64,000 nt of DNA, from positions 415,978 through 479,977 of the forward strand of contig JAFATB010000022.1 in NCBI GenBank assembly GCA_019244185.1. Direction: 5' to 3'. Below are positions 2,269 through 29,700 of this stretch, one piece after another. The stretch is from Acidobacteriota bacterium. Lineage in GTDB: Bacteria > Acidobacteriota > Thermoanaerobaculia > Gp7-AA8. Below the pieces are notes generated by a model. That model searched no databases. It worked only from the letters and a program-made list of their open reading frames with translations, and was not told the origin of the DNA. The translations under genes and the position numbers were made by a program. Position 1 is the first letter of the stretch. Each line of letters starts with the position of its first letter.

Positions 2269-4038
2269 CTACTCGCCCAACGCCGCGTACTTCACGATCC
2301 GGAACCGCGCGCCCTGCGCGTCGCGCACGCGCGCGGCGAGCTTCTCGTGCAGCTCGGGCGTCCACTGCGTCCAGCGCGCGTAGAACGCGGCCGCGGCGGC
2401 CTTGTCGCCGTTCGCCTGCAGCGCGAGCACCTCGTGCAGCAGCGAGGTCACGGCGTCCGCGTAACGGTCGTAGTGAATCGTGAGCCGCGCGGTTTTCGGA
2501 TCGGCGGTGAGCAGCCCTTTGTCGAGGAACCAGTTGAACTGCACGAGCTCCATGAACTGGTAAGGCTGATCGGCGCGCGGCCGAATGTTGAGCAGCACGC
2601 GGCGGATGCCGGCCGCCTGGATCGCGCGCAGGTCGGGGACGTTCATCCGCTGCAGCGCATACAGCGACACGAGATCCGCTTTCATCTCCTCGGTCGCGTC
2701 GGAGAACTCCTCGAGCGCGGCGTCGATCGTGCGGCCGGACTTGTCTCGATCCGGCCCGAGGTAGTGACCGATCTCGTGCCAGAGCGTGCGCTGCGCGTCG
2801 CCGTTGGGGCCGAGGTCGTTCGCGTTCGCGTCGACGACGGCGGCGCGGAAGATGCGCTGGCTCGCGGCGACGATCGACGGATTCGTGAGGATGTTCCGGC
2901 GCAAGAGGATGATGCGGCCGTAGCGGCGCGACATCAGCGGATCGTTCGGCAGGTTCGTGGCGCTGTTCGTGCCGCGCGCCTGGCCGAAGTCGGCGATGAC
3001 GTCGTAGACGCCGACCGGGATGTCCTCGCGCACGCGCTTGTGCTGCTCGTACGGCAGCGCGTCTTCGATGGCCTGGATGCCGCCGAGCTGGCGCCGCACT
3101 TCGCCGGTCGCTTTCTCGTCTTCGAGGAGAAGGCTGAACGAGTGGAACGCCTTCACGCCGTACAGCGCGTCGTCGTACGTCTCGTAGCTGCCGATCTGCG
3201 CGTTGAGATGCTTGAAGCGGCCGGTGATCCACGACGCGTCGCCCGATTCGTAGTCGTTCGTGATGAGGTCGCGGGCGCGGTTGCGGAGGTAGCGCGCGAA
3301 CTCCGCGTCGCTCGGCTCGAGCGTGCTCGCCGCGCGCGTGAGCAGGCGAAACGCGCTGACGAGATCGTCCGCGTACGCGATCGCATACGGCACCGCGTAG
3401 AACGTCGTGCCGTCGGCCGTGTACTGCATCGGCTTCCACTTCGCGAGCAGCATCGGATGCAGCTCGCGCAGCACGGCGAACGTGTTGAGCACCTGGATGT
3501 CGCGGTCGAGATTCGACTTCGTCGCGCGGCGGACGAGCGTGCGCGGGTCGAGCAGCTCGTCGCGCTGATCCGGATGCGCCGCGAGGTACTTGTCGAGCTC
3601 CTCGCGCGTGACGTCGGTAGGGTAGACGTTGCGTCCCGGCGCCTGCGCCGCGACGGGGAGGAACGGCTCGCGTTTGTTGTCGAGCGTCTGCGCGATGGGA
3701 CCCTGATTGAGGCGATAGAGCTGCAGCAGATTGTCCGCCTGCTTCGAGCCGCCGGTCTCGGAGTAGAGCTTGCGCAGCTCCTGATACGCGGGCAGCGCGT
3801 CGGGATGGCGCGAGACCTCGTAGAGCTTCTGCATGATCGCGCCGGCGGCGAGGAGATCCTTCAGCGCGGCGCGTTCGGGATCGGTGAGGCGGGAGAGGTC
3901 GGCGTCGAGACGGATGGTCTCCGTCTTCGCCAGCACGGCGTTCGACTGCGCCTCCGTCCAGTAGCCGTCGGGAAGCGATTTCTGCTGCGCGGATGCGGTG
4001 ACCGACACGGCGAGCGTGATCGCAAAAAGCGTTCTCAT
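2269..4038 (-). CDS. Secreted M49-family (dipeptidyl-peptidase III-like) zinc peptidase
   Basis: Signal peptide; [22 protein letters not shown] and EEMKAD motifs. Confidence 0.8.
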
Positions 4039-17231: not shown

Positions 17232-18947
17232 CTAGGGCGCGCCGATGGCGCGCCGCACCGCACGAATGTCGCCGTCCAGCGGCCGGTCGTAAAAGACCGG
17301 CCGCGCGGCGCTGCGGATCGTGAGGTACAACGCGCGCGTTCCTTCGCCGAGCTGCGCGGCGATCTCATTCGCGCGATCGCGCACCGCGGCTTCGAACTGC
17401 TGCGCCTGCGCGTTCGCCTCGGCTTCGTTCGCGAGCTTCGTCGGCTTGTTCGGATCGATGTCGAACGCCGCGCGCCATTCGACGGCTTGCGCCGCCGCGA
17501 GCAGCTCGATCGCGAGCACCGACTGCACGTTCGACAGCACCGTGCGCAGTTTGCGCGCGGCGTGCGTCGACATCGACACGTGGTCTTCCGTGTTCGCGCC
17601 GGTCGGGATCGAGTCGACCGACGCGGGATGCGCGAGGACTTTATTCTCGGAGACGATCGACGCCGCGGTGTACTGCAGGATCATCAGCCCCGAATTCACG
17701 CCCGGTCGCGTGGTGAGGTTCTGCGGCAACCCGCGATTGTGATGGCCGTCGAGCATCAACTGCGTGCGGCGCTCGCTGATGTTCCCGAGTTCGTGAATGG
17801 CGATGGTGAGGAAGTCCGCCGCGAGCGCGAGCGGCTGACCGTGGAAGTTGCCGGCGGAGTACGCGAGCCGGCGATCGCCGTGATACCACTCCGGCCAGTT
17901 CGCGCGGAACTGCAGGTCGAAGGGGTCGCCTTCGTCGGGGAAGAACAGCGGATTGTCGGTCGCCGCGTTGAGCTCGCGCTCCGCGGTCGCGCGCACGAAG
18001 CGCAACGTGTCGCGCGTCGCGCCGTGCACCTGCGGCGCGCAGCGCAGCGAATACGGATCCTGCACCGCGCCCGCGCGCTCGACGAGCCGGCTGCCGGCGA
18101 GCAGCGCGCCGATGCGTTGCGCGCTCTCGATCTGTCCCGGATGTCCGCGCTCCGCGTGCACTTTCGGATCGAGCGCGCGCGTGCAGCCGGCGAGCGCTTC
18201 GAGCGACAGCGCGGCCGCGGCGTCGGCATGATCGGCGAGCCGCTCCGCGTCGTACACCGCGAGCGCGAGCATCGCCGCGGAGAAGTTTGCACCGTTGACG
18301 AGGCCGAGTCCTTCCTTGAAGGTCGGCTTCAGTTCATCCGCGGAGAACCCGAGCACCTCGGGCAGCTCGCGCGCGGAACGGAGCGTGCGGTCGGAGGTCG
18401 TGTAGAAGCGGCCTTCTCCAAGCAGCGTGGCGAAGAGATGCGATAGCGGACAGAGATCGCCGCTCGCCCCGACCGAACCGCGCAGCGGGACGAGCGGAAT
18501 CACGCCGCGGTTGAGCATCGCCCGCACGATCTCGACGAGCCGCATGCGCACGCCGCTGCGACCTTTGAGAAACGCGTTGAGCCGCGTGGCGAGCGCGCCG
18601 CGGACGACTTCGGCGGGGTAGTAGTTTGCGAGATCGTCGGGATCGGAGTTGTCGCCGACGCCGACGGAATGCGAGAGCAGCAGGTTGCGCTGCAGCTGTT
18701 CGAGATCGTCCGGCGCGATCGGCTTGTCTTTGAATTCGCCGAAGCCGGTCGTGACGCCGTATTCGGAGATCTTGCCGCCCTGCGCGTATGCCTCGCGATG
18801 CTGCGCGACGACGCGCGCGATCGCGGCTTCGCTGCGGCGCACGGCGGGCTCGGTCTTCGGATCGATGTCGACCGTGACCGACGGATCGCGGGCGATCGAT
18901 GCGAGCTGCTCGATCGTCAGCGACGCGCCGTCGAGCACGACGTTCAT
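17232..18947 (-). CDS. hutH: Histidine ammonia-lyase (MIO aromatic amino-acid lyase), 571 aa, with insertions
   Basis: YGVTTGFG, NLLLSH (His-type SH), GSVGASGDL, QDPYSLRC, TDNPL, GNFHG, EDHVSM; ATG 18947 overlaps the hisS stop. Confidence 0.85.
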   Translation of the reverse strand: MNVVLDGASLTIEQLASIARDPSVTVDIDPKTEPAVRRSEAAIARVVAQHREAYAQGGKISEYGVTTGFGEFKDKPIAPDDLEQLQRNLLLSHSVGVGDNSDPDDLANYYPAEVVRGALATRLNAFLKGRSGVRMRLVEIVRAMLNRGVIPLVPLRGSVGASGDLCPLSHLFATLLGEGRFYTTSDRTLRSARELPEVLGFSADELKPTFKEGLGLVNGANFSAAMLALAVYDAERLADHADAAAALSLEALAGCTRALDPKVHAERGHPGQIESAQRIGALLAGSRLVERAGAVQDPYSLRCAPQVHGATRDTLRFVRATAERELNAATDNPLFFPDEGDPFDLQFRANWPEWYHGDRRLAYSAGNFHGQPLALAADFLTIAIHELGNISERRTQLMLDGHHNRGLPQNLTTRPGVNSGLMILQYTAASIVSENKVLAHPASVDSIPTGANTEDHVSMSTHAARKLRTVLSNVQSVLAIELLAAAQAVEWRAAFDIDPNKPTKLANEAEANAQAQQFEAAVRDRANEIAAQLGEGTRALYLTIRSAARPVFYDRPLDGDIRAVRRAIGAP

Positions 18948-20368
18948 TCGAGCTCCGCGAGCATCCGGCGGATGCCGTCGACGAGCTCCGCGCGCGGCAT
19001 CGTGACCTGCCCGGCGCGTTGCGCGAGGTACTCCTTGCGATCGGCGACCGGCTTCGCGCGCTCGCGTCCCGCGACCATGTCCTTCACGGTGACGATGCCT
19101 TCCGCGTGCTCGTTGCCGCCGTACAGCAGCGCGAGCGGGATGTCGTACTGGTCGGCGTACTTGAGCTGCTTGCCGACGCCTTTCGCGGTGCCGAGGTAGA
19201 GCTCCGTCGGAATGCCGGCGCGGCGCAGCTCCCACGTCATGGCGAGATACTCCTGTTCGAGCGACTCGTCCATGCGCGCGACGAGCACGCGCGCGGTCGC
19301 TTTGCGCTTGCCGATTTTTCCGAGCTGCGTGAGCGCGGCGAGGAGACGATCGACGCCGATCGACGCACCGACGGCAGGGATCGATTGCCCGAGGAAGCGC
19401 ATCACGAGATCGTCGTAACGGCCGCCGCCGAAGACGGAGCCGAACTGCGGCGCTTCCGTGAGAATCGCTTCGAACACCGGACCGGTGTAGTACGCGAGTC
19501 CGCGAGCGATCGAGAGATCGAGCGAGACGCGATCGTCGCCGTAGCCCAAAACGTAGAGGTTCGAGGAGATGCGCTCGATGACGTCGATCTGCGCGGGCGC
19601 GTTCTCGACGTGCGCGAACAACTCGCGCAGGCTGGTGAGCACTTCGCGGCGCGATTCGGATTTGATGGCGAGGAACTGTTCGATGCGATCGACCTGCTCG
19701 GACGTGAGGCCGACGCCGCGGATGGTGTCTCCCGATTCGTCGACGTAGCCGTTCATCAGCTCGCGCCGCACTTTTTCGACTCCGACTTTGTCGAGCTTGT
19801 CGAGCACGCGGAAGACGTCGACGCCCTGCTCGGCGGAGATGCCCGCGAACGCGAGCAGGAGATTCAGCACCGCGCGGCTGGAGAAGCGGACGAGATAGCC
19901 GCCGACGTCGAGCGCGCCGAGGGTGTCGCACATGCCCGCGATGATCTCGGTGTCCGCGATCTCGCTCACGACGCCGACGGAGTCGAGATCGAACTGGATG
20001 AACTCGCGGTAACGCCCTTTGTCCGGCTTGTCCGCGCGCCACACCGGCGCAACCTGATAGCGGCGGAACGGCCGTGGCAACTCGCGCTCGCTGTACTGCG
20101 CGATGACGCGCGCGAGCGGCACGGTCAGATCGAAGCGCAATCCCAATTCCTCGTGCTCCGGATTCGTGACGCGAAAGATCGACTGCTGCGCCTCGGCGCC
20201 CGCGCTGCCCGACAGGACGTCCAGAAACTCGACCGCCGGCGTCGACAACGGCACGAAGCCGTAGTTCTCGTACACCCCGCGAATGGTGTCGATCATCTGC
20301 TGCCGCGCCAGCATCTGGTCGGGAAGCAGATCGCGAAGGCCGCGGGAAAGGCGGGGAGAGGTGGTCAT
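18944..20368 (-). CDS. hisS: Histidine--tRNA ligase, alphaproteobacterial/eukaryote-like type
   Basis: LRFDLTVPLAR, WRADKPDKGRYREF, RGLAYYTG, GGGRYD, GASIGVDR; insertion DKLDK...DESGD; extended C-terminus. Confidence 0.95.
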   Translation of the reverse strand: MTTSPRLSRGLRDLLPDQMLARQQMIDTIRGVYENYGFVPLSTPAVEFLDVLSGSAGAEAQQSIFRVTNPEHEELGLRFDLTVPLARVIAQYSERELPRPFRRYQVAPVWRADKPDKGRYREFIQFDLDSVGVVSEIADTEIIAGMCDTLGALDVGGYLVRFSSRAVLNLLLAFAGISAEQGVDVFRVLDKLDKVGVEKVRRELMNGYVDESGDTIRGVGLTSEQVDRIEQFLAIKSESRREVLTSLRELFAHVENAPAQIDVIERISSNLYVLGYGDDRVSLDLSIARGLAYYTGPVFEAILTEAPQFGSVFGGGRYDDLVMRFLGQSIPAVGASIGVDRLLAALTQLGKIGKRKATARVLVARMDESLEQEYLAMTWELRRAGIPTELYLGTAKGVGKQLKYADQYDIPLALLYGGNEHAEGIVTVKDMVAGRERAKPVADRKEYLAQRAGQVTMPRAELVDGIRRMLAELE

Positions 20369-20373
20369 GAGAA

Positions 20374-20489
20374 GCGGAATGTAGAACGCAGAACGCAGAA
20401 CGCAGAATGAAGAAAGGGGAACGATGCGCAGTCGCGGGGCGACGGCATTTCTACGTTCTTACTTCTGCGTTCTGCGTTCTTCATTCCGC
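20374..20489. repeat. Inverted repeat built of AGAACGC heptamers between tRNA-His and hisS
   Basis: GCGGAATGTAGAACGCAGAACGCAGAA ... TTCTGCGTTCTGCGTTCTTCATTCCGC. Confidence 0.85.
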
Positions 20490-20507
20490 CGCCGCCAGGC
20501 GGCGGCT

Positions 20508-20584
20508 TGGTACCGGGGGCCGGTCTCGAACCGGCGACCCCCAGATCCACAATCTGGTGCTCTGACCAACTGAGCTACCCCGGC
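20508..20584 (-). tRNA. tRNA-His(GUG), 77 nt, encoded CCA, no genomic G-1, discriminator A73
   Basis: GCCGGGG TA GCTC AGTTGGTCA GAGC A CCAGA TT GTG GA TCTGG GGGTC GCCGG TTCGAGA CCGGC CCCCGGT A CCA; -10-like TATCAT at 20597-20602. Confidence 0.97.
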
Positions 20585-20679
20585 ACTCGGGCGGGCATGA
20601 TACTCGGGCACGCAGACGAGGGGAAGAGGCGCGCTCCGTGCCGTCCGCGCGTGAGAACGCCGCATCCCGCGAACGCATT

Positions 20680-21027: not shown

Positions 21028-21699
21028 TCAGTCACTATCCAGCAGCTGCAGCGCTTTCCGCCGATGCACGGCGATCGAGCGTCCCGCCGTCACGACGATG
21101 CCGCGTTTGCGGAAGCGCTGCATGAATACGGTGATGCGCGGCCGCGTGGTGCCGACGATCTGCGAGAGCTCTTCCTGCGAGATGCGCAGGTCGACGCGCG
21201 CGTAGTCGCCGTCGATGCTGCCGAGTTTCTCCGCGATGCCGAGCAACACTTTCGCGAGCCGCTTCTCGGCGTCCATCGTGACGAGGTCGAACACCGCCAC
21301 CTGCCGCTCGGCGAGCCGCAGCGCGAGGTGCCGCAACAGCATCTCCATCGCGGAGGCTTTCTCGACTTCCACGAGATAATCGCGCCGCAACACTTTGCGC
21401 ACGAAGGTGCGCTGCATCGCGGACGCGGTCTCGTTCCTGCGGCCGCTGTCGAGAAAACACGATTCGCCGAAGACATCGCCGGCGGCGTAAATCGCGAGCA
21501 CGCAATCCTTGCCGCTGGCGGAAGACATGGACAGCTTCACCTGTCCCGACTCGATCAGGTACATGGCGTCGTCTTCGTCCCCCGTGGCATAGATCGCTTG
21601 CTGGGCATCAGCGCGCAAGCGCGCCACCGGCAACGACTCGCGATCGAAAATGTCGCGAAGGGACGGTAGCGAATGGGCGCGGCCGTCTTTGGAAGGCAT
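21028..21699 (-). CDS. Crp/Fnr-family transcriptional regulator
   Basis: YLIESGQVKL, GDVFGE, AEKRLAKVLL, HTH SQEELSQIVGTTRPRIT. Confidence 0.9.
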   Translation of the reverse strand: MPSKDGRAHSLPSLRDIFDRESLPVARLRADAQQAIYATGDEDDAMYLIESGQVKLSMSSASGKDCVLAIYAAGDVFGESCFLDSGRRNETASAMQRTFVRKVLRRDYLVEVEKASAMEMLLRHLALRLAERQVAVFDLVTMDAEKRLAKVLLGIAEKLGSIDGDYARVDLRISQEELSQIVGTTRPRITVFMQRFRKRGIVVTAGRSIAVHRRKALQLLDSD

Positions 21700-22163: not shown

Positions 22164-23171
22164 CTATGAAGCCACGAAGAGCGCGTCGGCGAACCACGCG
22201 CGGGCGTCGGTCCAGAGGTGCGCGATCGTGAAGCCGGAGGATTGGGCGAGGGCGGCGAGGGTGGACTCGTCGTGTTTGTAGGAGCTCTCGGTGTGGATCG
22301 TTTCGGCTTCGGCGAAATCGACGCTCAGATCGAGGGCGGCGAGGTGGACGCGTTGCGGTTGCGTGCTCACGAGGTGCATCTCGATGCGGCCGAGGGGCTC
22401 GTTGTAGAAGGCGCGGTGGGTGAAGCGGTCGAGCGCGAAGTCGGCGTTGAGTTCGCGGTTCATGCGCACGAGGAGATTCTTGTTGAAGGCGGCGGTGACG
22501 CCGAGGGGGTCGTCGTAGGCGGGTTCGAGAACGTTGCGCGGCTTGCGGAGATCGGCGCCGAGGAGCAGCGCGTCGCCGCGGGAGAGTGCGGAGCGGAGAT
22601 CGCGGAGCATCGCGATCGCGGCGTCGGGATCGAGATTGCCGATGGTCGAGCCGAGGAAAAGGACCACGTTGCGGCCGCGATGGGGGCCAAGCATCGCGAG
22701 CGACGACGACGGCGACGCGAAGTCGGCGCGGACGGCGGTGATGCGGAGGTGCGGATAGTCGGCGAGCAGCTCGCGCGCGGAGCGTTCGAGCATCGACGCG
22801 TCGACGTCGACGGGAACGTATTCGAGCTCACGCTGGCGTTCCGTCAGGACGTCGAGGAGGATGCGCGTCTTGCGCGCGGCGCCGCTGCCGAGCTCCACGA
22901 GGCGCACCTGGGCGCCGAACGCATCGCAGATTTCGCTCGCGTGCGCGTGCAGCACCTCGGCTTCCGCGCGCATCACGTAGTACTCGGGCAGAAAACAGAT
23001 CGCGTCGAAGAGCGAGGATCCGAGCTCGTCGTAGAACCAGCGCGGCGGGAGCGACTTGCGGGACGCGGTGAGACCGCGGCGGACGTCGTCCGCGAAATCG
23101 CCGGCCGCGACGGCGCCGTGGCGCAGCGTGAACCGTGACGTGGGCGAGACCGGGACGGCGGCTGCGCACAT
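22164..23171 (-). CDS. egtD: L-histidine N-alpha-methyltransferase
   Basis: GLT..KSLPPRWFYD..GS.LFDAIC.LPEYY, VELGSG, FLGSTIGN, AYDDPLGVTAAFN, HTESSYK. Confidence 0.9.
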   Translation of the reverse strand: MCAAAVPVSPTSRFTLRHGAVAAGDFADDVRRGLTASRKSLPPRWFYDELGSSLFDAICFLPEYYVMRAEAEVLHAHASEICDAFGAQVRLVELGSGAARKTRILLDVLTERQRELEYVPVDVDASMLERSARELLADYPHLRITAVRADFASPSSSLAMLGPHRGRNVVLFLGSTIGNLDPDAAIAMLRDLRSALSRGDALLLGADLRKPRNVLEPAYDDPLGVTAAFNKNLLVRMNRELNADFALDRFTHRAFYNEPLGRIEMHLVSTQPQRVHLAALDLSVDFAEAETIHTESSYKHDESTLAALAQSSGFTIAHLWTDARAWFADALFVAS

Positions 23172-26715: not shown

Positions 26716-29700
26716 TCAGGGCTGAATGGGCTCGTAGTCCGGCAGCAGCACGACGTTCTGCTTGCGCACCGCGTCGCGGAACTGCGCGACGTCGGACGCG
26801 TACAGCTGGTTCAGATCGGCGAGCACGCTGCGCAGCAGCAGCTCCGCGTTCGCGAGATACGTCAGCTGCGCGGGCGTCGGCGCGTCCCACGACGACTGCA
26901 TGGCGTTGATCGGATAGCCGATGCGGGACAGCACGTCGTTCTCGGCGACGAGGCCTTTCGTCTTCGGCGGCGTCCAGAGGCGGCGTTCGATGGCGTCGAG
27001 CTTCGCCTTCAGTTCCGTGGCCTGCTTCGTCAGCGGATCGGGCGGCGCGTTCGTCGCGGCGGCGTCGCGGTCGTCGTCCTTCTTCAGCTTCGCCGTGATC
27101 GCATCGAGATCGGCGCGCGTCTTCTGGATGCGCTCGACCGCGGCGGTCGCGGTTTCCTGCAGCGCGCCAGCGCGCACGATCGCGTCGTACTTTGCCTGCC
27201 GCACCGACTGCGCGATCGTCTCGCGCGGATCGGCGACGACGGTCACCTGCTGCTTCGCCTCGTTGCCGCGGAAGCGGATCGTGACGGTGTAGACGCCCGG
27301 CACGACTTCCGGACCTCCGCGCCGGCGGAACGATTCTTCTTCGCCCTCGCCGCGCTTCGGCTGCTTGAAGGCGTCGCGCGTGAGATCCCACGACGCGCGG
27401 TTCACGCCGAGGATCGCGGGACCTTTGAACTTGCGAATGACCTTGCCGGCGGCGTCGGCGACTTCGATGTCGACTTGCGGCGGCTTGTCGTCGCCGGCGC
27501 GTGTCGCCTGCGTTTGGCCTTGCGGCTTCTGCGCTTCCTTCTGTTCCTGCTTCGCCTTCTGCGCCTCCGGCTCCTTCGGCACGTCGCTCACGACCTGCGG
27601 CACGCCTTCGTCGGTCACGATCGCCTGCCGCGCGGCGTCGCGTTCCTTCTCCTTGCGCTCGCGTTCGCGTTCTTCCGTCGGATGCGGGATGCCGGCGACG
27701 TTGAGCGAGTAGGTGAGGAGCGCGCCGTACGGCTCGTTCTCGCCGCGGAATTCGGAGTCGCCGACGAAGCGCGAGCCTTCCTTCTGCCGCACGGTGTACT
27801 GCTGCGCGTCGGGCACGCTGAAGAAGTGCAGCGGCTCGGCGAGCACGGCTTTCGACATCGTGCGCAGCGGGCGGATGTCGTCGAGGATGTACGCGGCGCG
27901 CCCGTGCGTGGCGATGGCGAGATCGTGATCGCGCGGATGGATCTTCAGTCCCTGCACGGACACCGTCGGGAAGCCGTGCTTCCACTTCGACCACGACTTG
28001 CCGCCGTCGAGGCTCGTCCAGAGACCGAACTCCGTGCCGAGGAAGAGGAGATCGGCGTCGACCGGATCCTGTTCGATCGAGAGCGCGTAGCCCCAGAGGT
28101 CTTTCGTCGCCAGCGACGTCCACGTCTTGCCGTAGTCGTTCGTGCGGAAGACGTACGGCGTCCAGTTCGAGCGGCGGTGATCGTCGAGGACGATGAACGC
28201 GGTGCCGGCGTCGTACGTCGAGGCCTTGATCTCCGGCACCCACGTGTTCGCGGGAACGCCTTTGAGATTCGCCTCGACGCTCGTCCAGTGCGCGCCGCCG
28301 TCGCGCGTCACCTGCACGCGGCCGTCGTCGGTGCCGGCCCAGACGACGTTGCGGTCGACGGGACTCGGCGCGAGCGCGATGATCGTCGTGAAGTTCTCCG
28401 CGCCGCTCGCGTCGAGCGTGAGGCCGCCGCTCTTGTCCTGCTGCTGCCACTCCTTGCGATTCGTCGTGAGATCGGGGCTGATCGTCTTCCACGTCTCGCC
28501 GCGATCGCTCGAGTGATGCACGTACTGGCTGCCGAAGTAGACGCCGTTCGGATCGAACGGATCGACGGCGATGGCGGCGTTCCAGTTGAAGCGGATGGGC
28601 GTGTTCGGATCGAGTGGCGCGGGGCGGATGTCCTTCCGCTCGCCGGTGCGCAGGTTCCAGCGGACGATGTGCCCTTCCTGGCTCATCGCGTAGCCGACCA
28701 TCGGATCGGTGGGAATCGGCGCGGTGCCGAAGCCGTCGCCGAACCCGATCTCCTGCCAGTCCCAGTTGCGCACGCCGGCGGTCTCCCACGTCGTGTTCGG
28801 CCCTTTCCACGAGCCGTTGTCCTGCATGCCGCCGTAGATGTTGTACGGCATCTCGTTGTCGACGGCGATGTGGTAGTACTGGCCGAGCGGCAGCGACGCG
28901 ACGAAGCGCCAGCTCGTGCCACGGTCGCGCGATTCCGAGACGCCGCCGTCGTTGCCTTCGAGGATGTGGCCGCCGTCGTTCGGATCGATCCACATCGCGT
29001 GATGGTCGGGATGCACTTTCGAGTACGGCACGAGCGTCTTGAACGTGCGCCCGCCGTCGTTCGACACGCTGATCACCGAGTAGATGTTGTAGACGCGATT
29101 CGCGTCCTGCGGATCGACGCGGAGAAACGTGTAGTAGAACGGGCGATTGGCGATGTCGGTCTCCGTGTTGACCGCGGTCCATTTGCGACCGCCATCGTCG
29201 GAGCGCAGCAGCGCGCTCTTGTCGGCTTCGACGAGCGCGTAGACGATGCTCGGGTTCGAGCGCGCGATGGCGACGCCGATGCGCCCCAGCACACCTTTCG
29301 GCATGCCGTCGTCTTCGGTATAGCGCTTCCACGTTTCGCCGCCGTCGTACGAGACGTAGAGTCCCGAGCCGGGGCCGCCGGAGTTGAAGTACCACGGCCA
29401 GCGCCGGTACTCCCACATCGACGCGAAGAGCTTGTTCGGATTCGACGGATCGATGACCAGATCGGCGGCGCCGGTGCGGTCGTTCACGAAGAGCACTTTG
29501 CGCCAGCTCTTGCCGCCGTCGACGGTCTTGAAGACGCCGCGGTCGGCGTTCGGCGACCACTCCTGGCCGAGCGCGGCGACCCAGGCGACGTTTGGATCGC
29601 GCGGATGCACGACGATGCGCGGAATGCGCTCGGTCTTGTCGAGGCCGAGGTGCTGCCAGGTCTTGCCGCCGTCGAGCGTCCGGTAGACGCCGTTGCCGAC

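What the first reader, a model, noticed from the sequence alone, without database searches (positions are those of the whole stretch)
18944..20602. tRNA-His lacking G-1, encoded directly upstream of a Caulobacter-type HisRS in an apparently non-alphaproteobacterial genome
Seen: the tRNA(GUG) has T at -1, a G1:U72 first pair and A73, rather than the near-universal bacterial G-1:C73. The hisS gene 139 nt downstream has motif 2 WRADKPDKGRYREF, a DKLDK...DESGD insertion and a long C-terminal extension. Known: loss of G-1 with U72/A73 identity and a divergent HisRS is described for an alphaproteobacterial clade (Caulobacter, Rhizobiales), where the pair is orthogonal to E. coli's. Inference: this genome looks acidobacterial, so the linked pair may be a transferable His-identity cassette, or a donor or sister lineage of the alphaproteobacterial system.
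Basis: partly seen in the sequence, partly recalled or inferred. Interest (0 to 1): 0.85.

Follow-up and report, generated by a model that had tools for sequence, protein, structure and literature searches.

The report
G-1-less histidine tRNA pair in Acidobacteria
An acidobacterial genome carries the unusual histidine tRNA and matching charging enzyme so far described only in one group of alphaproteobacteria, and the same pair turns up in several other bacterial phyla, so it is not the alphaproteobacterial speciality it was thought to be.

Summary
On the minus strand lie one tRNA-His(GUG), 20508-20584, with T at -1, G1:U72, A73 and an encoded CCA; a 139-nt spacer; then hisS, 18944-20368. The genome is 98.9% complete. 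It has one tRNA-His, one hisS and no Thg1.

RpoB places it in Acidobacteriota, class Thermoanaerobaculia, not alphaproteobacteria.

The HisRS sits in one well-supported clade (100/99) with Caulobacter, Rhodobacter, Hyphomicrobiales and Pelagibacter enzymes. It shares their marks: the motif-2-loop Gln is lost (Asp116 here), and there are two inserts.

The same clade includes other acidobacterial families, Nitrospirota, Omnitrophota and Zixibacteria. Every clade genome whose tRNA-His I found has U72 with A73 or G73. HisRS outside the clade pairs with C73. In 201 Thermoanaerobaculia genomes the split was 46 of 46 against 0 of 88.

Distribution is patchy, and the tRNA often lies directly upstream of hisS. 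This fits lateral spread with replacement of the canonical pair. The direction of transfer relative to alphaproteobacteria is unresolved.

The mature tRNA 5' end and the charging rules are inferred, not shown.

I found no report of this pair in bacteria outside alphaproteobacteria and their phages.

The parts
20508..20584 (-). tRNA-His(GUG): G1 at 20584, U72, A73 at 20511, encoded CCA at 20508-20510. C3:G70, 9-nt D-loop with an extra base 20a (C here), G37.
   Evidence: ARAGORN; Rfam tRNA model 68.9 bits; sequence; alignment with other tRNA-His genes
20585..20585 (-). Position -1 of the tRNA gene is T, not G.
   Evidence: Sequence. T at -1 in all 44 related acidobacterial loci that hold the tRNA. 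Across this genome's 55 ARAGORN tRNAs, -1 is C 26, T 18, A 7, G 4.
20369..20507 (-). 139-nt spacer between the tRNA and hisS. It has a short GC hairpin next to the tRNA and a long palindrome (20374-20489) built of GAACGCA heptads, a repeat dispersed through the genome.
   Evidence: RNA fold -77.3 kcal/mol; 52-55 genome-wide places for the heptad arms; only weak chance matches to miRNA models in Rfam
18944..20368 (-). hisS, histidyl-tRNA synthetase, 474 aa, of the G-1-independent (Caulobacter-type) clade.
   Evidence: TIGR00442 350.1 bits; Pfam PF13393 and PF03129; trees; model pLDDT 95.2
20000..20041 (-). Motif 2 and its loop, WRADKPDKGRYREF (residues 110-123). Asp116 stands where other HisRS have Gln.
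   Evidence: Alignment: 0 of 56 clade rows have Gln there, 33 of 40 rows outside do. In T. thermophilus this Gln117 contacts the backbone at positions 71-72 (passages of PMC4357726).
19715..19753 (-). Clade-specific insert in the insertion domain, NGYVDESGDTIRG (residues 206-218). Predicted beta-hairpin.
   Evidence: Present in 33 of 33 clade rows shown; absent or only partial in 20 of 20 outside rows; strands 207-209 and 215-217
18992..19054 (-). Stretch (residues 439-459) holding the ~19-residue clade-specific insert before the last helix of the anticodon-binding domain.
   Evidence: Present in 33 of 33 clade rows shown, 0 of 20 outside rows; helix 444-450 and strand 454-458. Yuan et al. 2011 describe such an insert in Caulobacter HisRS as the likely anticodon reader.
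17232..18947 (-). hutH-like histidine ammonia-lyase, 571 aa. Its ATG overlaps the hisS stop (ATGA), so it is probably in the same operon. It is a neighbour, not shown to be part of the identity system.
   Evidence: NF006871 546.5 bits (cut-off 524); TIGR01225 539.0 (cut-off 539.15); overlap read; linkage in related loci

Best explanation
This is a complete, sole histidine-identity pair that works without G-1.

The tRNA-His precursor has no G-1:C73 pair, so RNase P should cut it at +1 like any other tRNA. That gives a 7-bp acceptor stem starting with a G1:U72 wobble, followed by A73.

The linked HisRS has lost the motif-2-loop Gln and carries an extra element on its anticodon-binding domain. 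I infer that it selects the tRNA by the GUG anticodon plus U72 (with A73 minor), as measured for the Caulobacter enzyme.

The enzyme belongs to the same clade as the alphaproteobacterial G-1-independent HisRS. In Thermoanaerobaculia the pair has replaced the canonical G-1/C73 pair. It most likely arrived by lateral transfer of tRNA and synthetase together.

Shown: gene content, sequence features, phylogeny, co-variation across genomes. Inferred: the mature 5' end, the identity rules, orthogonality, and transfer.
For: tRNA features (Yuan et al. 2011 list): no G at -1, A73, G1:U72, C3:G70, 9-nt D-loop with base 20a, G37. All are met.

Gene content:
- 1 tRNA-His among 55 tRNAs.
- 1 HisRS-like gene at E <= 0.01.
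- No Thg1 at E <= 1 in a 98.9% complete genome. The same search finds Thg1 at 69 bits in a Lutibacter genome.
- RNase P RNA is present at 284 bits.

Phylogeny: one clade holds this enzyme and the Caulobacter, Oceanicaulis, Rhodobacter, Hyphomicrobiales and Pelagibacter enzymes.
- FastTree, 187 rows: 99.
- IQ-TREE quick, 96 rows: 99.
- IQ-TREE careful, 64 rows: 100/99.

Shared derived characters: Gln lost in 56 of 56 clade rows against 7 of 40 outside. Both inserts occur in 33 of 33 clade rows shown; the anticodon-domain insert occurs in 0 of 20 outside rows.

Co-variation:
- Class sample of 201 genomes: all 46 with a clade-type HisRS (>= 68% identity) have tRNA-His with U72 plus A73 (43) or G73 (3). 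All 88 others with a pattern match have C72/C73.
- Phylum sample of 251 genomes: the 10 genomes with U72/A73 are 9 of the 10 that carry a clade-type HisRS, plus G037 (83% complete, no HisRS match). By my count, 25 genomes with a non-clade archaeal/eukaryote-like HisRS (34-47% identity) all have C72/C73.
- After the tree was built I looked up tRNA-His in further genomes. All 8 found inside the clade have U72 and no G at -1. All 12 parsed outside have C73.

Replacement rather than coexistence: each of G179, G018, G132, G191 and G231 has one hisS above the cut-off. Two closed genomes of the same family hold only the U72/A73 tRNA-His as a complete gene.

Patchiness:
- Within family f1, 38 of 49 genomes have the pair, 9 have a canonical-type HisRS and 2 have no match.
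- Elsewhere in the class, only f8, f81, f84 and f86 have it.
- G179, from another acidobacterial lineage (f30, 1 of 9), carries a Thermoanaerobaculia-like HisRS (68% identity).

The tRNA lies directly upstream of hisS in G179, as in many other clade genomes.
Against: - No experiment or read data show the mature 5' end. The three RNA runs that hold part of the stretch are contigs and show no ends.
- T at -1 could pair with A73, and it is invariant in this family. RNase P might therefore leave U-1.
- This enzyme has Asp116 where alphaproteobacteria have Gly, and C20a where they have U20a. Caulobacter kinetics may not carry over exactly.
- One other tRNA of this genome, Glu-CUC on C26, also has G1:U72 and A73. 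The acceptor end alone cannot define His here.
- Transfer is inferred from patchy distribution and tree position only. Vertical descent with many losses is not formally excluded.
- The base of the clade is unresolved.
- Many clade members are unnamed cluster representatives.
- No viral contig carries a relative.
- The clade was first recognised on the tree, so grouping by it is partly circular. The later tRNA look-ups and the indels are the independent checks.
Confidence: 0.82

Rival explanations
1. The mature tRNA still carries a -1 nucleotide. Either U-1 is kept because it pairs with A73 and shifts RNase P cleavage, as G-1:C73 does in E. coli, or G-1 is added by an unrecognised enzyme. The synthetase would then still read an 8-bp stem.
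For: T at -1 is invariant in the 44 related acidobacterial loci that hold the tRNA, and it is complementary to A73. Yuan et al. describe the G-1:C73 pair as the cause of the shifted cleavage.
Against: - Across the clade, -1 is T, C or G while 73 stays A or G (T 55, C 4, G 3 of 62, one G being an artefact). Caulobacter and Methyloligella have C at -1. A conserved -1:73 pair is therefore not a property of the system.
- T is also common at -1 of this genome's other tRNAs (18 of 55).
- There is no Thg1.
- The enzyme lacks the motif-2 Gln. In a gappy part of the alignment, it also lacks the Gly-Gly that forms the G-1 pocket in T. thermophilus (tentative).
- Adding G-1 made Caulobacter tRNA-His a 5-fold worse substrate.
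Confidence: 0.08
2. Independent, convergent origin. Acidobacteria and alphaproteobacteria each lost G-1 separately, and the enzymes only look alike because both derive from the archaeal/eukaryote-like HisRS type.
For: Mukai et al. 2017 raise convergence for the resemblance between alphaproteobacterial and eukaryotic His identity (passage). Many Acidobacteriota do carry the archaeal/eukaryote-like type.
Against: - The acidobacterial non-clade enzymes of that type (37-44% identity) lie outside the clade and pair with G-1/C73 tRNAs.
- The clade has 100/99 support.
- It shares two indels and the Gln loss.
- The tRNAs share U72, A73, C3:G70 and the enlarged D-loop.
Confidence: 0.04
3. Vertical inheritance. 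The pair is ancient in Acidobacteriota, or older, and most lineages later reverted to or re-acquired the canonical pair. No transfer of a cassette took place.
For: - The tRNA-hisS-hutH order recurs in several acidobacterial families (f1, f13, f30, f59; L056).
- Acidobacterial sequences fall in only a few branches of the clade.
Against: - Only 11 of 251 sampled Acidobacteriota genomes show the pair (10 with the clade-type HisRS, plus G037 with the tRNA only), in 5 of 77 family codes.
- Within one family, 9 genomes in 8 genera have the canonical-type HisRS.
- G179's enzyme nests among Thermoanaerobaculia sequences although its genome is related only at phylum level, and 8 of 9 genomes of its family lack it.
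- The same clade occurs in Nitrospirota, Omnitrophota, Zixibacteria and alphaproteobacteria.
Confidence: 0.06

Closest known systems
G-1-independent HisRS/tRNA-His pair of the alphaproteobacterial RRCH clade: Caulobacter crescentus, Rhizobiales, Rhodobacterales, most SAR11. Sources: Yuan et al. 2011, PMC3064791, parts 1-3 of 4 read (the main text); Amrine et al. 2014, PMC3937112, passages. Wang et al. 2007 and Ardell & Andersson 2006 were not held, so their content is recalled or second-hand.
   Same: - tRNA: no encoded G-1, G1:U72, A73, C3:G70, 9-nt D-loop with base 20a, G37.
- Enzyme: same clade (100/99), motif-2-loop Gln lost, same insert in the insertion domain, same insert in the anticodon-binding domain.
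- It is the sole His pair of the genome, and there is no Thg1.
   Different: - Host phylum is Acidobacteriota.
- Asp, not Gly, stands at the lost-Gln position.
- Base 20a is C, not U, in this genome (T in most relatives).
- The tRNA gene lies directly upstream of hisS. By contrast, 0 of the 44 alphaproteobacterial loci and neither L061 nor L062 hold a tRNA-His. The 4 Pelagibacter loci have it 1.5-2.5 kb away.
- The alphaproteobacterial subclade has an extra 3-residue insert near residue 57 that this enzyme lacks.
- A sub-branch of the acidobacterial group uses G73.
Canonical bacterial histidine identity (E. coli, T. thermophilus): encoded G-1 paired with C73, kept by shifted RNase P cleavage. 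Source: Tian et al. 2015, PMC4357726, passages.
   Same: Class IIa HisRS fold and catalytic motifs; GUG anticodon; encoded CCA.
   Different: - No G-1, and U72/A73 in place of C72/C73.
- The enzyme gives E about 1e-24 against E. coli and T. thermophilus chains, versus 1e-58 to 1e-62 against human, Nostoc and Elizabethkingia chains.
- The motif-2 Gln is lost.
G-1-independent HisRS of some protists (Trypanosoma brucei, Acanthamoeba castellanii). Source: Rao & Jackman 2015, PMC4338351, search listing and abstract only; mentioned in the 2023 review.
   Same: tRNA-His without G-1, no Thg1, and a non-canonical HisRS of the archaeal/eukaryote-like type.
   Different: Eukaryotic lineages. Trypanosome HisRS chains match at only 1e-39 and 25-27% identity by fold. 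I did not place them on the tree, so any relationship to this clade is untested.

Membership tests
G-1-independent (Caulobacter-type) HisRS/tRNA-His pair | tRNA-His gene without a templated G at -1 | tested here: met
   T at 20585. T at -1 in all 44 related acidobacterial loci that hold the tRNA.
G-1-independent (Caulobacter-type) HisRS/tRNA-His pair | A73 discriminator and G1:U72 first pair | tested here: met
   Sequence and Rfam alignment
G-1-independent (Caulobacter-type) HisRS/tRNA-His pair | C3:G70 pair, 9-nt D-loop with extra base 20a, G37 (features listed by Yuan et al. 2011) | tested here: met
   Base 20a is C in this genome and T in most relatives.
G-1-independent (Caulobacter-type) HisRS/tRNA-His pair | HisRS groups with the alphaproteobacterial G-1-independent enzymes | tested here: met
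   One clade, 99 and 100/99. It includes loci titled Caulobacter, Oceanicaulis, Rhodobacter, Methyloligella and Pelagibacteraceae.
G-1-independent (Caulobacter-type) HisRS/tRNA-His pair | Motif-2-loop Gln replaced. Amrine et al. 2014 give this as Gly in place of Gln in the RRCH clade. | tested here: met
   Asp116 here. 0 of 56 clade rows have Gln; 33 of 40 outside rows do. The residue differs from the alphaproteobacterial Gly.
G-1-independent (Caulobacter-type) HisRS/tRNA-His pair | Insert in the anticodon-binding domain not found in other class IIa enzymes (Yuan et al. 2011) | tested here: met
   A ~19-residue insert within residues 439-459. Present in 33 of 33 clade rows shown and 0 of 20 outside rows. 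That it is the same insert the paper means is inferred from position, because the paper's figure is not held.
G-1-independent (Caulobacter-type) HisRS/tRNA-His pair | Sole His pair of the cell; no Thg1 | tested here: met
   Positive control for Thg1.
G-1-independent (Caulobacter-type) HisRS/tRNA-His pair | Mature tRNA starts at G1 | not testable with these tools
   Only contigs of RNA libraries were on hand, and they show no ends.
G-1-independent (Caulobacter-type) HisRS/tRNA-His pair | Charging depends on the anticodon and U72, not on G-1; the pair is orthogonal to the E. coli pair | not testable with these tools
   Biochemistry exists only for Caulobacter.
Canonical bacterial G-1:C73 histidine identity | Encoded G-1 paired with C73; G1:C72 | tested here: not met
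   T at -1, U72, A73. For contrast, 30 of 30 acidobacterial tRNA-His loci L121-L150 have G at -1 and G1:C72; 28 of them have C73 and 2 have A73.
Thg1-dependent histidine identity (eukaryotes, some archaea) | A Thg1-family guanylyltransferase that adds G-1 after RNase P cleavage | tested here: not met
   PF04446: 0 matches at E <= 1 in the window's own genome.

The most novel reading that the evidence does not exclude
The G-1-independent histidine identity system did not arise in alphaproteobacteria. It is an older, laterally mobile pair, a tRNA gene and its synthetase often travelling as one cassette, now present in at least five phyla. The RRCH alphaproteobacteria would be one recipient lineage. 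Because the pair is orthogonal to the canonical one, it can enter a genome, coexist without mischarging, and then displace the resident pair. That would be a natural route by which a tRNA identity rule is swapped wholesale.
Probability: 0.4. Interest if true: 0.8.

Novelty: new member of a known kind. Interest (0 to 1): 0.68.

Why it matters
The loss of G-1 has been treated as a unique, once-only trait of one alphaproteobacterial clade. It has even been used as a marker for placing SAR11 (Amrine et al. 2014, passages). A 2023 review of tRNA identity still names only 'some groups of alpha-Proteobacteria' among bacteria (passage).

Finding the same pair, with the same enzyme clade and indels, in Acidobacteriota, Nitrospirota, Omnitrophota and Zixibacteria has three consequences:
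- The trait is not a safe phylogenetic marker.
- The origin of the system becomes a question that wider sampling can test.
- Natural tRNA-hisS cassettes become available. These may be further orthogonal pairs for genetic-code engineering, the use Yuan et al. proposed for the Caulobacter pair.

The work also gives a simple way to predict which tRNA-His a bacterium uses from its HisRS sequence: check the residue at the motif-2 Gln position and the two inserts.

Tried and rejected
**Expression and 5' end.** The look-up of sequencing runs gave 3 soil or rhizosphere RNA runs, each holding about 5% of the sampled words. When laid, only the tRNA part (about 20507-20586) was covered, by 8 contig pieces at 90-99% likeness that run on into unlike sequence. 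These come from relatives and are contigs, so they say nothing about the 5' end or about transcription of this locus.

**Phage vehicle.** A scan of viral contigs with the HisRS found no relative. It used close-relative patterns only.

**Spacer RNA.** Rfam gave only weak sub-threshold miRNA-model matches to the spacer palindrome. The palindrome is a dispersed repeat, not a riboswitch or T-box that I could recognise.

**A second tRNA-His in closed relatives.** A loose pattern hit a canonical-looking 3' half in G354. ARAGORN finds no tRNA there, and the fragment lies beside tyrosine-recombinase-like ORFs. I read it as an attachment-site remnant, not a gene.

**hutH as part of a mobile cassette.** The hisS-hutH linkage also occurs with HisRS outside the clade. 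The hutH of other clade-bearing families is no closer to ours (42-58%) than the unlinked hutH of canonical-pair relatives (43-50%). I therefore do not claim co-transfer.

**G-1 pocket Gly-Gly.** It aligns with acidic residues in the clade. The region is gappy and the sister clade lacks the glycines too, so I treat this as tentative.

**tRNA-His not recovered.** The top hits did not yield a tRNA-His for G006, G266, G003, G268, G272, G273 and G275. G270 was only partly parsed.

Wang et al. 2007 and Ardell & Andersson 2006 are not held. What I say of them is second-hand or recalled.

**Not done.** Eukaryotic and most archaeal HisRS were not placed on the tree, because no named sequences were on hand. 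The tree has one 'uncultured archaeon' row. The older claim of a eukaryotic origin was therefore not tested.

**Unpublished genomes.** The tallies include genomes flagged unpublished (G167, G039, G064, G442, G438, G402). Without them the class counts are 44 of 44 against 0 of 87.

Full report
**1. What is in the window**

ARAGORN finds two tRNA genes in the window. One is tRNA-His(gtg) at 20508-20584 on the minus strand. Rfam's tRNA model matches 20511-20584 at 68.9 bits, E 3.9e-15.

Read on the minus strand, the gene begins ...ccgagt|GCCGGGG and ends CCCCGGT-A-CCA. So:
- position -1 is T (20585);
- the first pair is G1:U72;
- the discriminator is A73;
- CCA is encoded.

It also has C3:G70, a nine-base D-loop with an extra base 20a, and G37.

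After a 139-nt spacer comes a 474-codon ORF at 18944-20368, also on the minus strand. It scores 350.1 bits on NCBIfam's hisS model TIGR00442, above the 286.75 cut-off, and matches Pfam's HisRS core and anticodon-binding domains.

One detail needs changing: the 'C-terminal extension' is an internal insertion near the C-terminus.

**2. The genome**

The window lies on a 480-kb contig of a 5.30-Mb assembly with 26 contigs and 66-68% G+C throughout. Estimated completeness is 98.9% and contamination 1.5%.
- Of 55 ARAGORN tRNAs, one is tRNA-His.
- A search of the whole genome with the HisRS finds only itself at E <= 0.01.
- Pfam's Thg1 model finds nothing at E <= 1. The same model finds a Thg1 gene at 69 bits in a Lutibacter genome, so the search works on bacterial DNA.
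- RNase P RNA is present at 284 bits.

For classification I used a gene independent of the finding. A 705-residue part of RpoB is 92% identical to a MAG titled Thermoanaerobaculia bacterium. It is 67-75% identical to Solibacter, Vicinamibacterales, Acidobacteriaceae, Pyrinomonadaceae and Blastocatellaceae, and 55-60% to alphaproteobacteria. The host is an acidobacterium of the class Thermoanaerobaculia, not an alphaproteobacterium.

**3. Close relatives**

A scan of one genome per species with the HisRS gave 72 loci. Fifty-five of them are 64-85% identical, and nearly all are titled Thermoanaerobaculia or Acidobacteriota.

In 44 of these 55 loci, ARAGORN finds a tRNA-His directly upstream of hisS. 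Every one has T at -1, G1:U72, A73 and CCA. The 11 without one are:
- two loci with no upstream sequence;
- one fragment;
- eight loci of a 64-70% identity group.

**4. The enzyme's family**

Against solved structures, the enzyme is much closer to the archaeal/eukaryote-like type than to the E. coli, T. thermophilus or S. aureus type. Elizabethkingia, Nostoc and human cytoplasmic chains give E 1e-58 to 1e-62; the latter group gives about 1e-21 to 1e-24.

For the trees I combined three sets:
- the best 150 of 1.84 billion cluster representatives;
- named loci from two genome scans;
- loci from the acidobacterial sample.

Three trees agree on one clade: FastTree on 187 rows, IQ-TREE quick on 96 rows, and IQ-TREE with bootstrap on 64 rows under LG+G4. 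In the last tree the bootstrap had not fully settled. Support for the clade is 99, 99 and 100/99.

The clade contains:
- the window's enzyme;
- other acidobacterial lineages: family codes f8, f13, f30 and f59, and a MAG titled Vicinamibacteria;
- a Nitrospiraceae MAG, Omnitrophota MAGs and a Zixibacteria MAG;
- several unnamed representatives;
- the alphaproteobacterial enzymes (Caulobacter, Oceanicaulis, Rhodobacter, Methyloligella, Rhodomicrobium, Paramesorhizobium, Parvibaculum, Pelagibacteraceae).

The named alphaproteobacteria form one sub-branch (95/78). It is nested in a 15-row group (99/99) whose outer members are unnamed.

The window's enzyme lies in a 10-row group (100/99) with f8, f30, the Vicinamibacteria MAG and a MAG titled Planctomycetaceae. 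That group's sister is f13.

The order of the main branches is unresolved. The window's lineage is therefore neither the specific sister nor an identifiable donor of the alphaproteobacterial one.

The sister of the whole clade is a group of CPR (Komeilibacteria, Paceibacterota) and Bacteroidota (Lutibacter) enzymes. The other archaeal/eukaryote-like HisRS all lie outside. These come from Acidobacteriota, Chloroflexota, Poribacteria, Planctomycetota, Clostridia, Spirochaetota and one archaeon.

**5. Shared derived characters**

In a MAFFT alignment of the 96 rows:
- The Gln of the motif-2 loop is absent from all 56 clade rows. It is replaced by Gly or Asp, rarely Asn, Glu or others. It is present in 33 of 40 rows outside, including a canonical-type enzyme. 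Here it is Asp116; alphaproteobacteria have Gly.
- All 33 clade rows I displayed have a ~12-residue insert in the insertion domain (G-[RY]-x-D-x-S-G-D...). Of 20 outside rows shown, 16 have nothing there and 4 have unrelated residues.
- All 33 clade rows have a ~19-residue insert before the last helix of the anticodon-binding domain. None of the 20 outside rows has it.

The literature fits these marks. Tian et al. 2015 report that Gln117 of the T. thermophilus enzyme bonds the backbone at positions 71-72 (passage). Amrine et al. 2014 describe the Gln-to-Gly change as the mark of the alphaproteobacterial clade (passage). Yuan et al. 2011 single out an insert in the anticodon-binding domain as the likely anticodon reader.

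An AlphaFold2 model built on a 50-row alignment has mean pLDDT 95.2. It folds the first insert as a beta-hairpin (207-217) and the second as a short helix plus a strand (444-458). No solved structure is more than 32% identical.

**6. Co-variation of enzyme and tRNA across genomes**

*Phylum sample: 251 Acidobacteriota genomes, drawn evenly.* A pattern for tRNA-His matched in 120 genomes. Ten have U72/A73, two have C72/A73 and 108 have C72/C73. A search of the same 251 genomes with the HisRS found clade-type enzymes (48-80% identity) in ten genomes.
- Nine of these ten are among the ten with U72/A73.
- The tenth, G191, has a longer D-loop that the pattern missed. It was later shown to have U72/A73.
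- The remaining U72/A73 genome, G037, is 83% complete and gave no HisRS match.
- By my count from the two tables, 25 genomes carry a non-clade archaeal/eukaryote-like HisRS (34-47% identity) and also have a pattern match. All have C72/C73.

All 30 tRNA-His loci fetched from genomes without the clade enzyme have G at -1 and G1:C72. Twenty-eight of them have C73 and two have A73.

*Class sample: 201 Thermoanaerobaculia genomes.* Forty-six have a clade-type HisRS at 68% identity or more. They are 38 of 49 in the window's family f1, 1 in f8, 4 of 4 in f81, 2 of 2 in f84 and 1 in f86.
- All 46 have a tRNA-His with U72 plus A73 (43) or G73 (3).
- The 88 other genomes with a pattern match all have C72/C73.
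- Nine f1 genomes from eight genera have a canonical-type HisRS instead (30-33% identity). The one of these whose tRNA matched the pattern (G231) has C72/C73.

*Prediction test.* After the tree was made, I built a covariance model of tRNA-His and searched 28 further genomes.
- Inside the clade, all 8 genomes where a tRNA-His was recovered have U72 and no G at -1. These are Methyloligella, Nitrospiraceae, an unclassified Pseudomonadota MAG, Rhodobacter, Caulobacter, a MAG labelled Luminiphilus, G191 and G007. Seven have A73 and one has G73.
- Outside the clade, all 12 parsed have C73. Eleven of them have G at -1.
- Earlier look-ups gave U72/A73 for a Zixibacteria genome, an Omnitrophota genome, an unclassified bacterium and two alphaproteobacteria. 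A Terriglobia genome had the canonical form.
- Over all distinct tRNA-His genes in my loci, G stands at -1 in 39 of 41 with C72/C73. It stands there in 3 of 62 with U72/A73, one of which is a parsing artefact.

**7. Replacement, not coexistence**

The hisS family model finds exactly one gene above its cut-off in each of G179, G018, G132, G191 and G231.

None of the 46 class genomes with the clade enzyme shows a second, canonical-type match. Four show a second clade-type copy or fragment.

In two closed genomes of family f1, a loose pattern finds the U72/A73 gene as the only complete tRNA-His. A canonical-looking 3' half in one of them lies beside recombinase-like ORFs and is not a tRNA by ARAGORN.

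**8. Linkage**

The tRNA lies within a few hundred bases upstream of hisS in the following:
- most f1 genomes;
- three of four f81 genomes;
- both f59 genomes;
- the f13 genome G018;
- G179 (f30);
- a further Acidobacteriota MAG (L056);
- a Blastocatellia MAG (L204);
- an unnamed bacterium (L184) that branches next to the alphaproteobacteria.

It is unlinked in f8, f84 and f86, and in the Omnitrophota and Zixibacteria genomes. None of the 44 alphaproteobacterial loci (flanks up to 2.5 kb) holds a tRNA-His, nor do L061 and L062. The four Pelagibacter loci have it 1.5-2.5 kb away.

In this window the spacer carries a copy of a palindromic repeat found at more than 50 places in the genome. Co-transcription is therefore not assured.

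**9. How it most likely works**

Shown: the genome has one tRNA-His and one HisRS. The tRNA gene has no G-1 and cannot form a G-1:C73 pair. No Thg1 is present. The enzyme has the derived characters of the one HisRS type known to work without G-1.

Inferred, from the Caulobacter biochemistry of Yuan et al. 2011:
- RNase P cuts at +1.
- The enzyme reads the GUG anticodon. In Caulobacter, anticodon changes cost 91- to 1000-fold.
- It reads U72. U72C cost 91-fold.
- A73 contributes little, about 3-fold.
- G-1 does not help; adding it made the Caulobacter substrate 5-fold worse.
- The pair is probably orthogonal to a G-1/C73 pair.

One other tRNA of this genome, Glu-CUC, also has G1:U72 and A73. 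This fits a system in which the anticodon carries most of the discrimination.

A G73 variant in one acidobacterial sub-branch fits a minor role for position 73.

I put about 0.8 on this reading. The main rival is that U-1 is retained because it can pair with A73. It is weakened because -1 varies (T, C, G) across the clade while the rest of the system stays the same.

**10. How it got here**

The pair is present in 11 of 251 sampled Acidobacteriota genomes, in 5 of 77 family codes, and in only part of the window's own family.

G179 is related to the window's genome only at phylum level, and 8 of 9 genomes of its family lack the enzyme. Its HisRS is 68% identical to ours and sits among Thermoanaerobaculia sequences, with the tRNA directly upstream.

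The same enzyme clade occurs in at least four other phyla.

The simplest account is repeated lateral transfer of tRNA and synthetase together, followed by loss of the resident pair. Orthogonality would make the intermediate state, with two pairs in one cell, harmless.

This account is inferred. I found no genome holding both pairs and no phage or plasmid copy. The direction of transfer relative to alphaproteobacteria cannot be read from an unresolved radiation.

**11. Comparison with what is in print**

The G-1-less pair is described for a subgroup of alphaproteobacteria (Yuan et al. 2011, parts 1-3 of 4 read).
- Amrine et al. [quoted passage not shown]
- Mukai et al. 2017 found G-1-less tRNA-His with an 8/4 structure in alphaproteobacterial phages (passage).
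- The 2023 review by Giege and Eriani names only 'some groups of alpha-Proteobacteria' among bacteria (passage).

My full-text searches for tRNA-His and G-1 together with Acidobacteria, Nitrospirae, Omnitrophica or Zixibacteria, and for reports from metagenomes, returned nothing that describes the pair outside alphaproteobacteria. The library lacks most subscription journals, and the two founding papers were not held. An earlier mention therefore cannot be excluded.

**12. Verdict**

The window holds a new member of a known kind of system in an unexpected phylum.

The wider result is the more interesting part. One enzyme clade, one tRNA type, several phyla, and often a linked cassette together change how the alphaproteobacterial case should be read.

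Interest 0.68. It is held below the top range because the mechanism is carried over from Caulobacter and the evolutionary direction is open.

Noticed in passing
window 20374-20489: Long palindrome (-77 kcal/mol) built of GAACGCA heptads between the tRNA and hisS. The same arms occur at 52-55 places in the genome, so it looks like a REP- or MITE-like dispersed repeat.
   Followed up: partly
window 17232-18947 (minus strand): hutH-like histidine ammonia-lyase whose ATG overlaps the hisS stop (ATGA). It is the genome's only HAL homolog. The hisS-HAL linkage also occurs with HisRS outside the clade (L160, L177, L060) and with HisRS-like paralogs of Dyella and Pseudoxanthomonas (L255, L244).
   Followed up: partly
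window 21028-21699 and 22164-23171 (minus strand): A Crp/Fnr-family regulator and an EgtD-type L-histidine N-alpha-methyltransferase (TIGR03438, 366 bits) lie upstream of the tRNA. Together with hisS and hutH this makes a histidine-themed neighbourhood, conserved in several relatives.
   Followed up: partly
L227 (Lutibacter) 3886-3962; L268 (Komeilibacteria): The sister HisRS clade pairs with a tRNA-His that has C73 but no encoded G at -1 (T or A there). The Lutibacter genome has a Thg1-family gene (69 bits). The two CPR genomes gave no Thg1 hit.
   Followed up: partly
L091, L276; G420, G308, G332: One acidobacterial sub-branch of the clade has a tRNA-His with U72 and G73 instead of A73, plus a shorter D-loop.
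   Followed up: no
L300 2041-2081 (G354:C1:4031740-4031780): The 3' half of a canonical-type tRNA-His (C72, C73) lies beside two tyrosine-recombinase-like ORFs, in a genome whose only complete tRNA-His is the U72/A73 type. It is probably an attachment-site remnant of an integrative element.
   Followed up: partly
G000:C26:108510-108585: This genome's tRNA-Glu(CUC) also has G1:U72 and A73, unlike its tRNA-Glu(UUC), which has G1:C72 and G73.
   Followed up: no
window 26908-26994: ARAGORN calls an 87-nt 'tRNA-Glu(ctc)' here, without CCA and with an atypical sequence. It may be a false call or a tRNA-like element.
   Followed up: no
L204 2501-4644 (Blastocatellia MAG): The clade-type hisS match spans 2144 nt, and only residues 197-471 lie in one ORF. 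The gene is interrupted or carries a large insertion. A U72/A73 tRNA-His lies directly upstream.
   Followed up: no
L273 (Acidobacteriota MAG of L218): This tRNA-His has G at -1, G1:U72 and C73. It is paired with a non-clade HisRS that also lacks the motif-2 Gln. It is a mixed state.
   Followed up: no
G000:C16:57926-60235: A partial second rpoB lies at the end of contig C16, besides the full gene on C19. It may be an assembly duplicate or strain mixture.
   Followed up: no
G398:C5:17601-19007; G342:C44:38437-39822: Some genomes of the window's genus carry a second, diverged clade-type hisS (58-60% identity) besides the main one.
   Followed up: no
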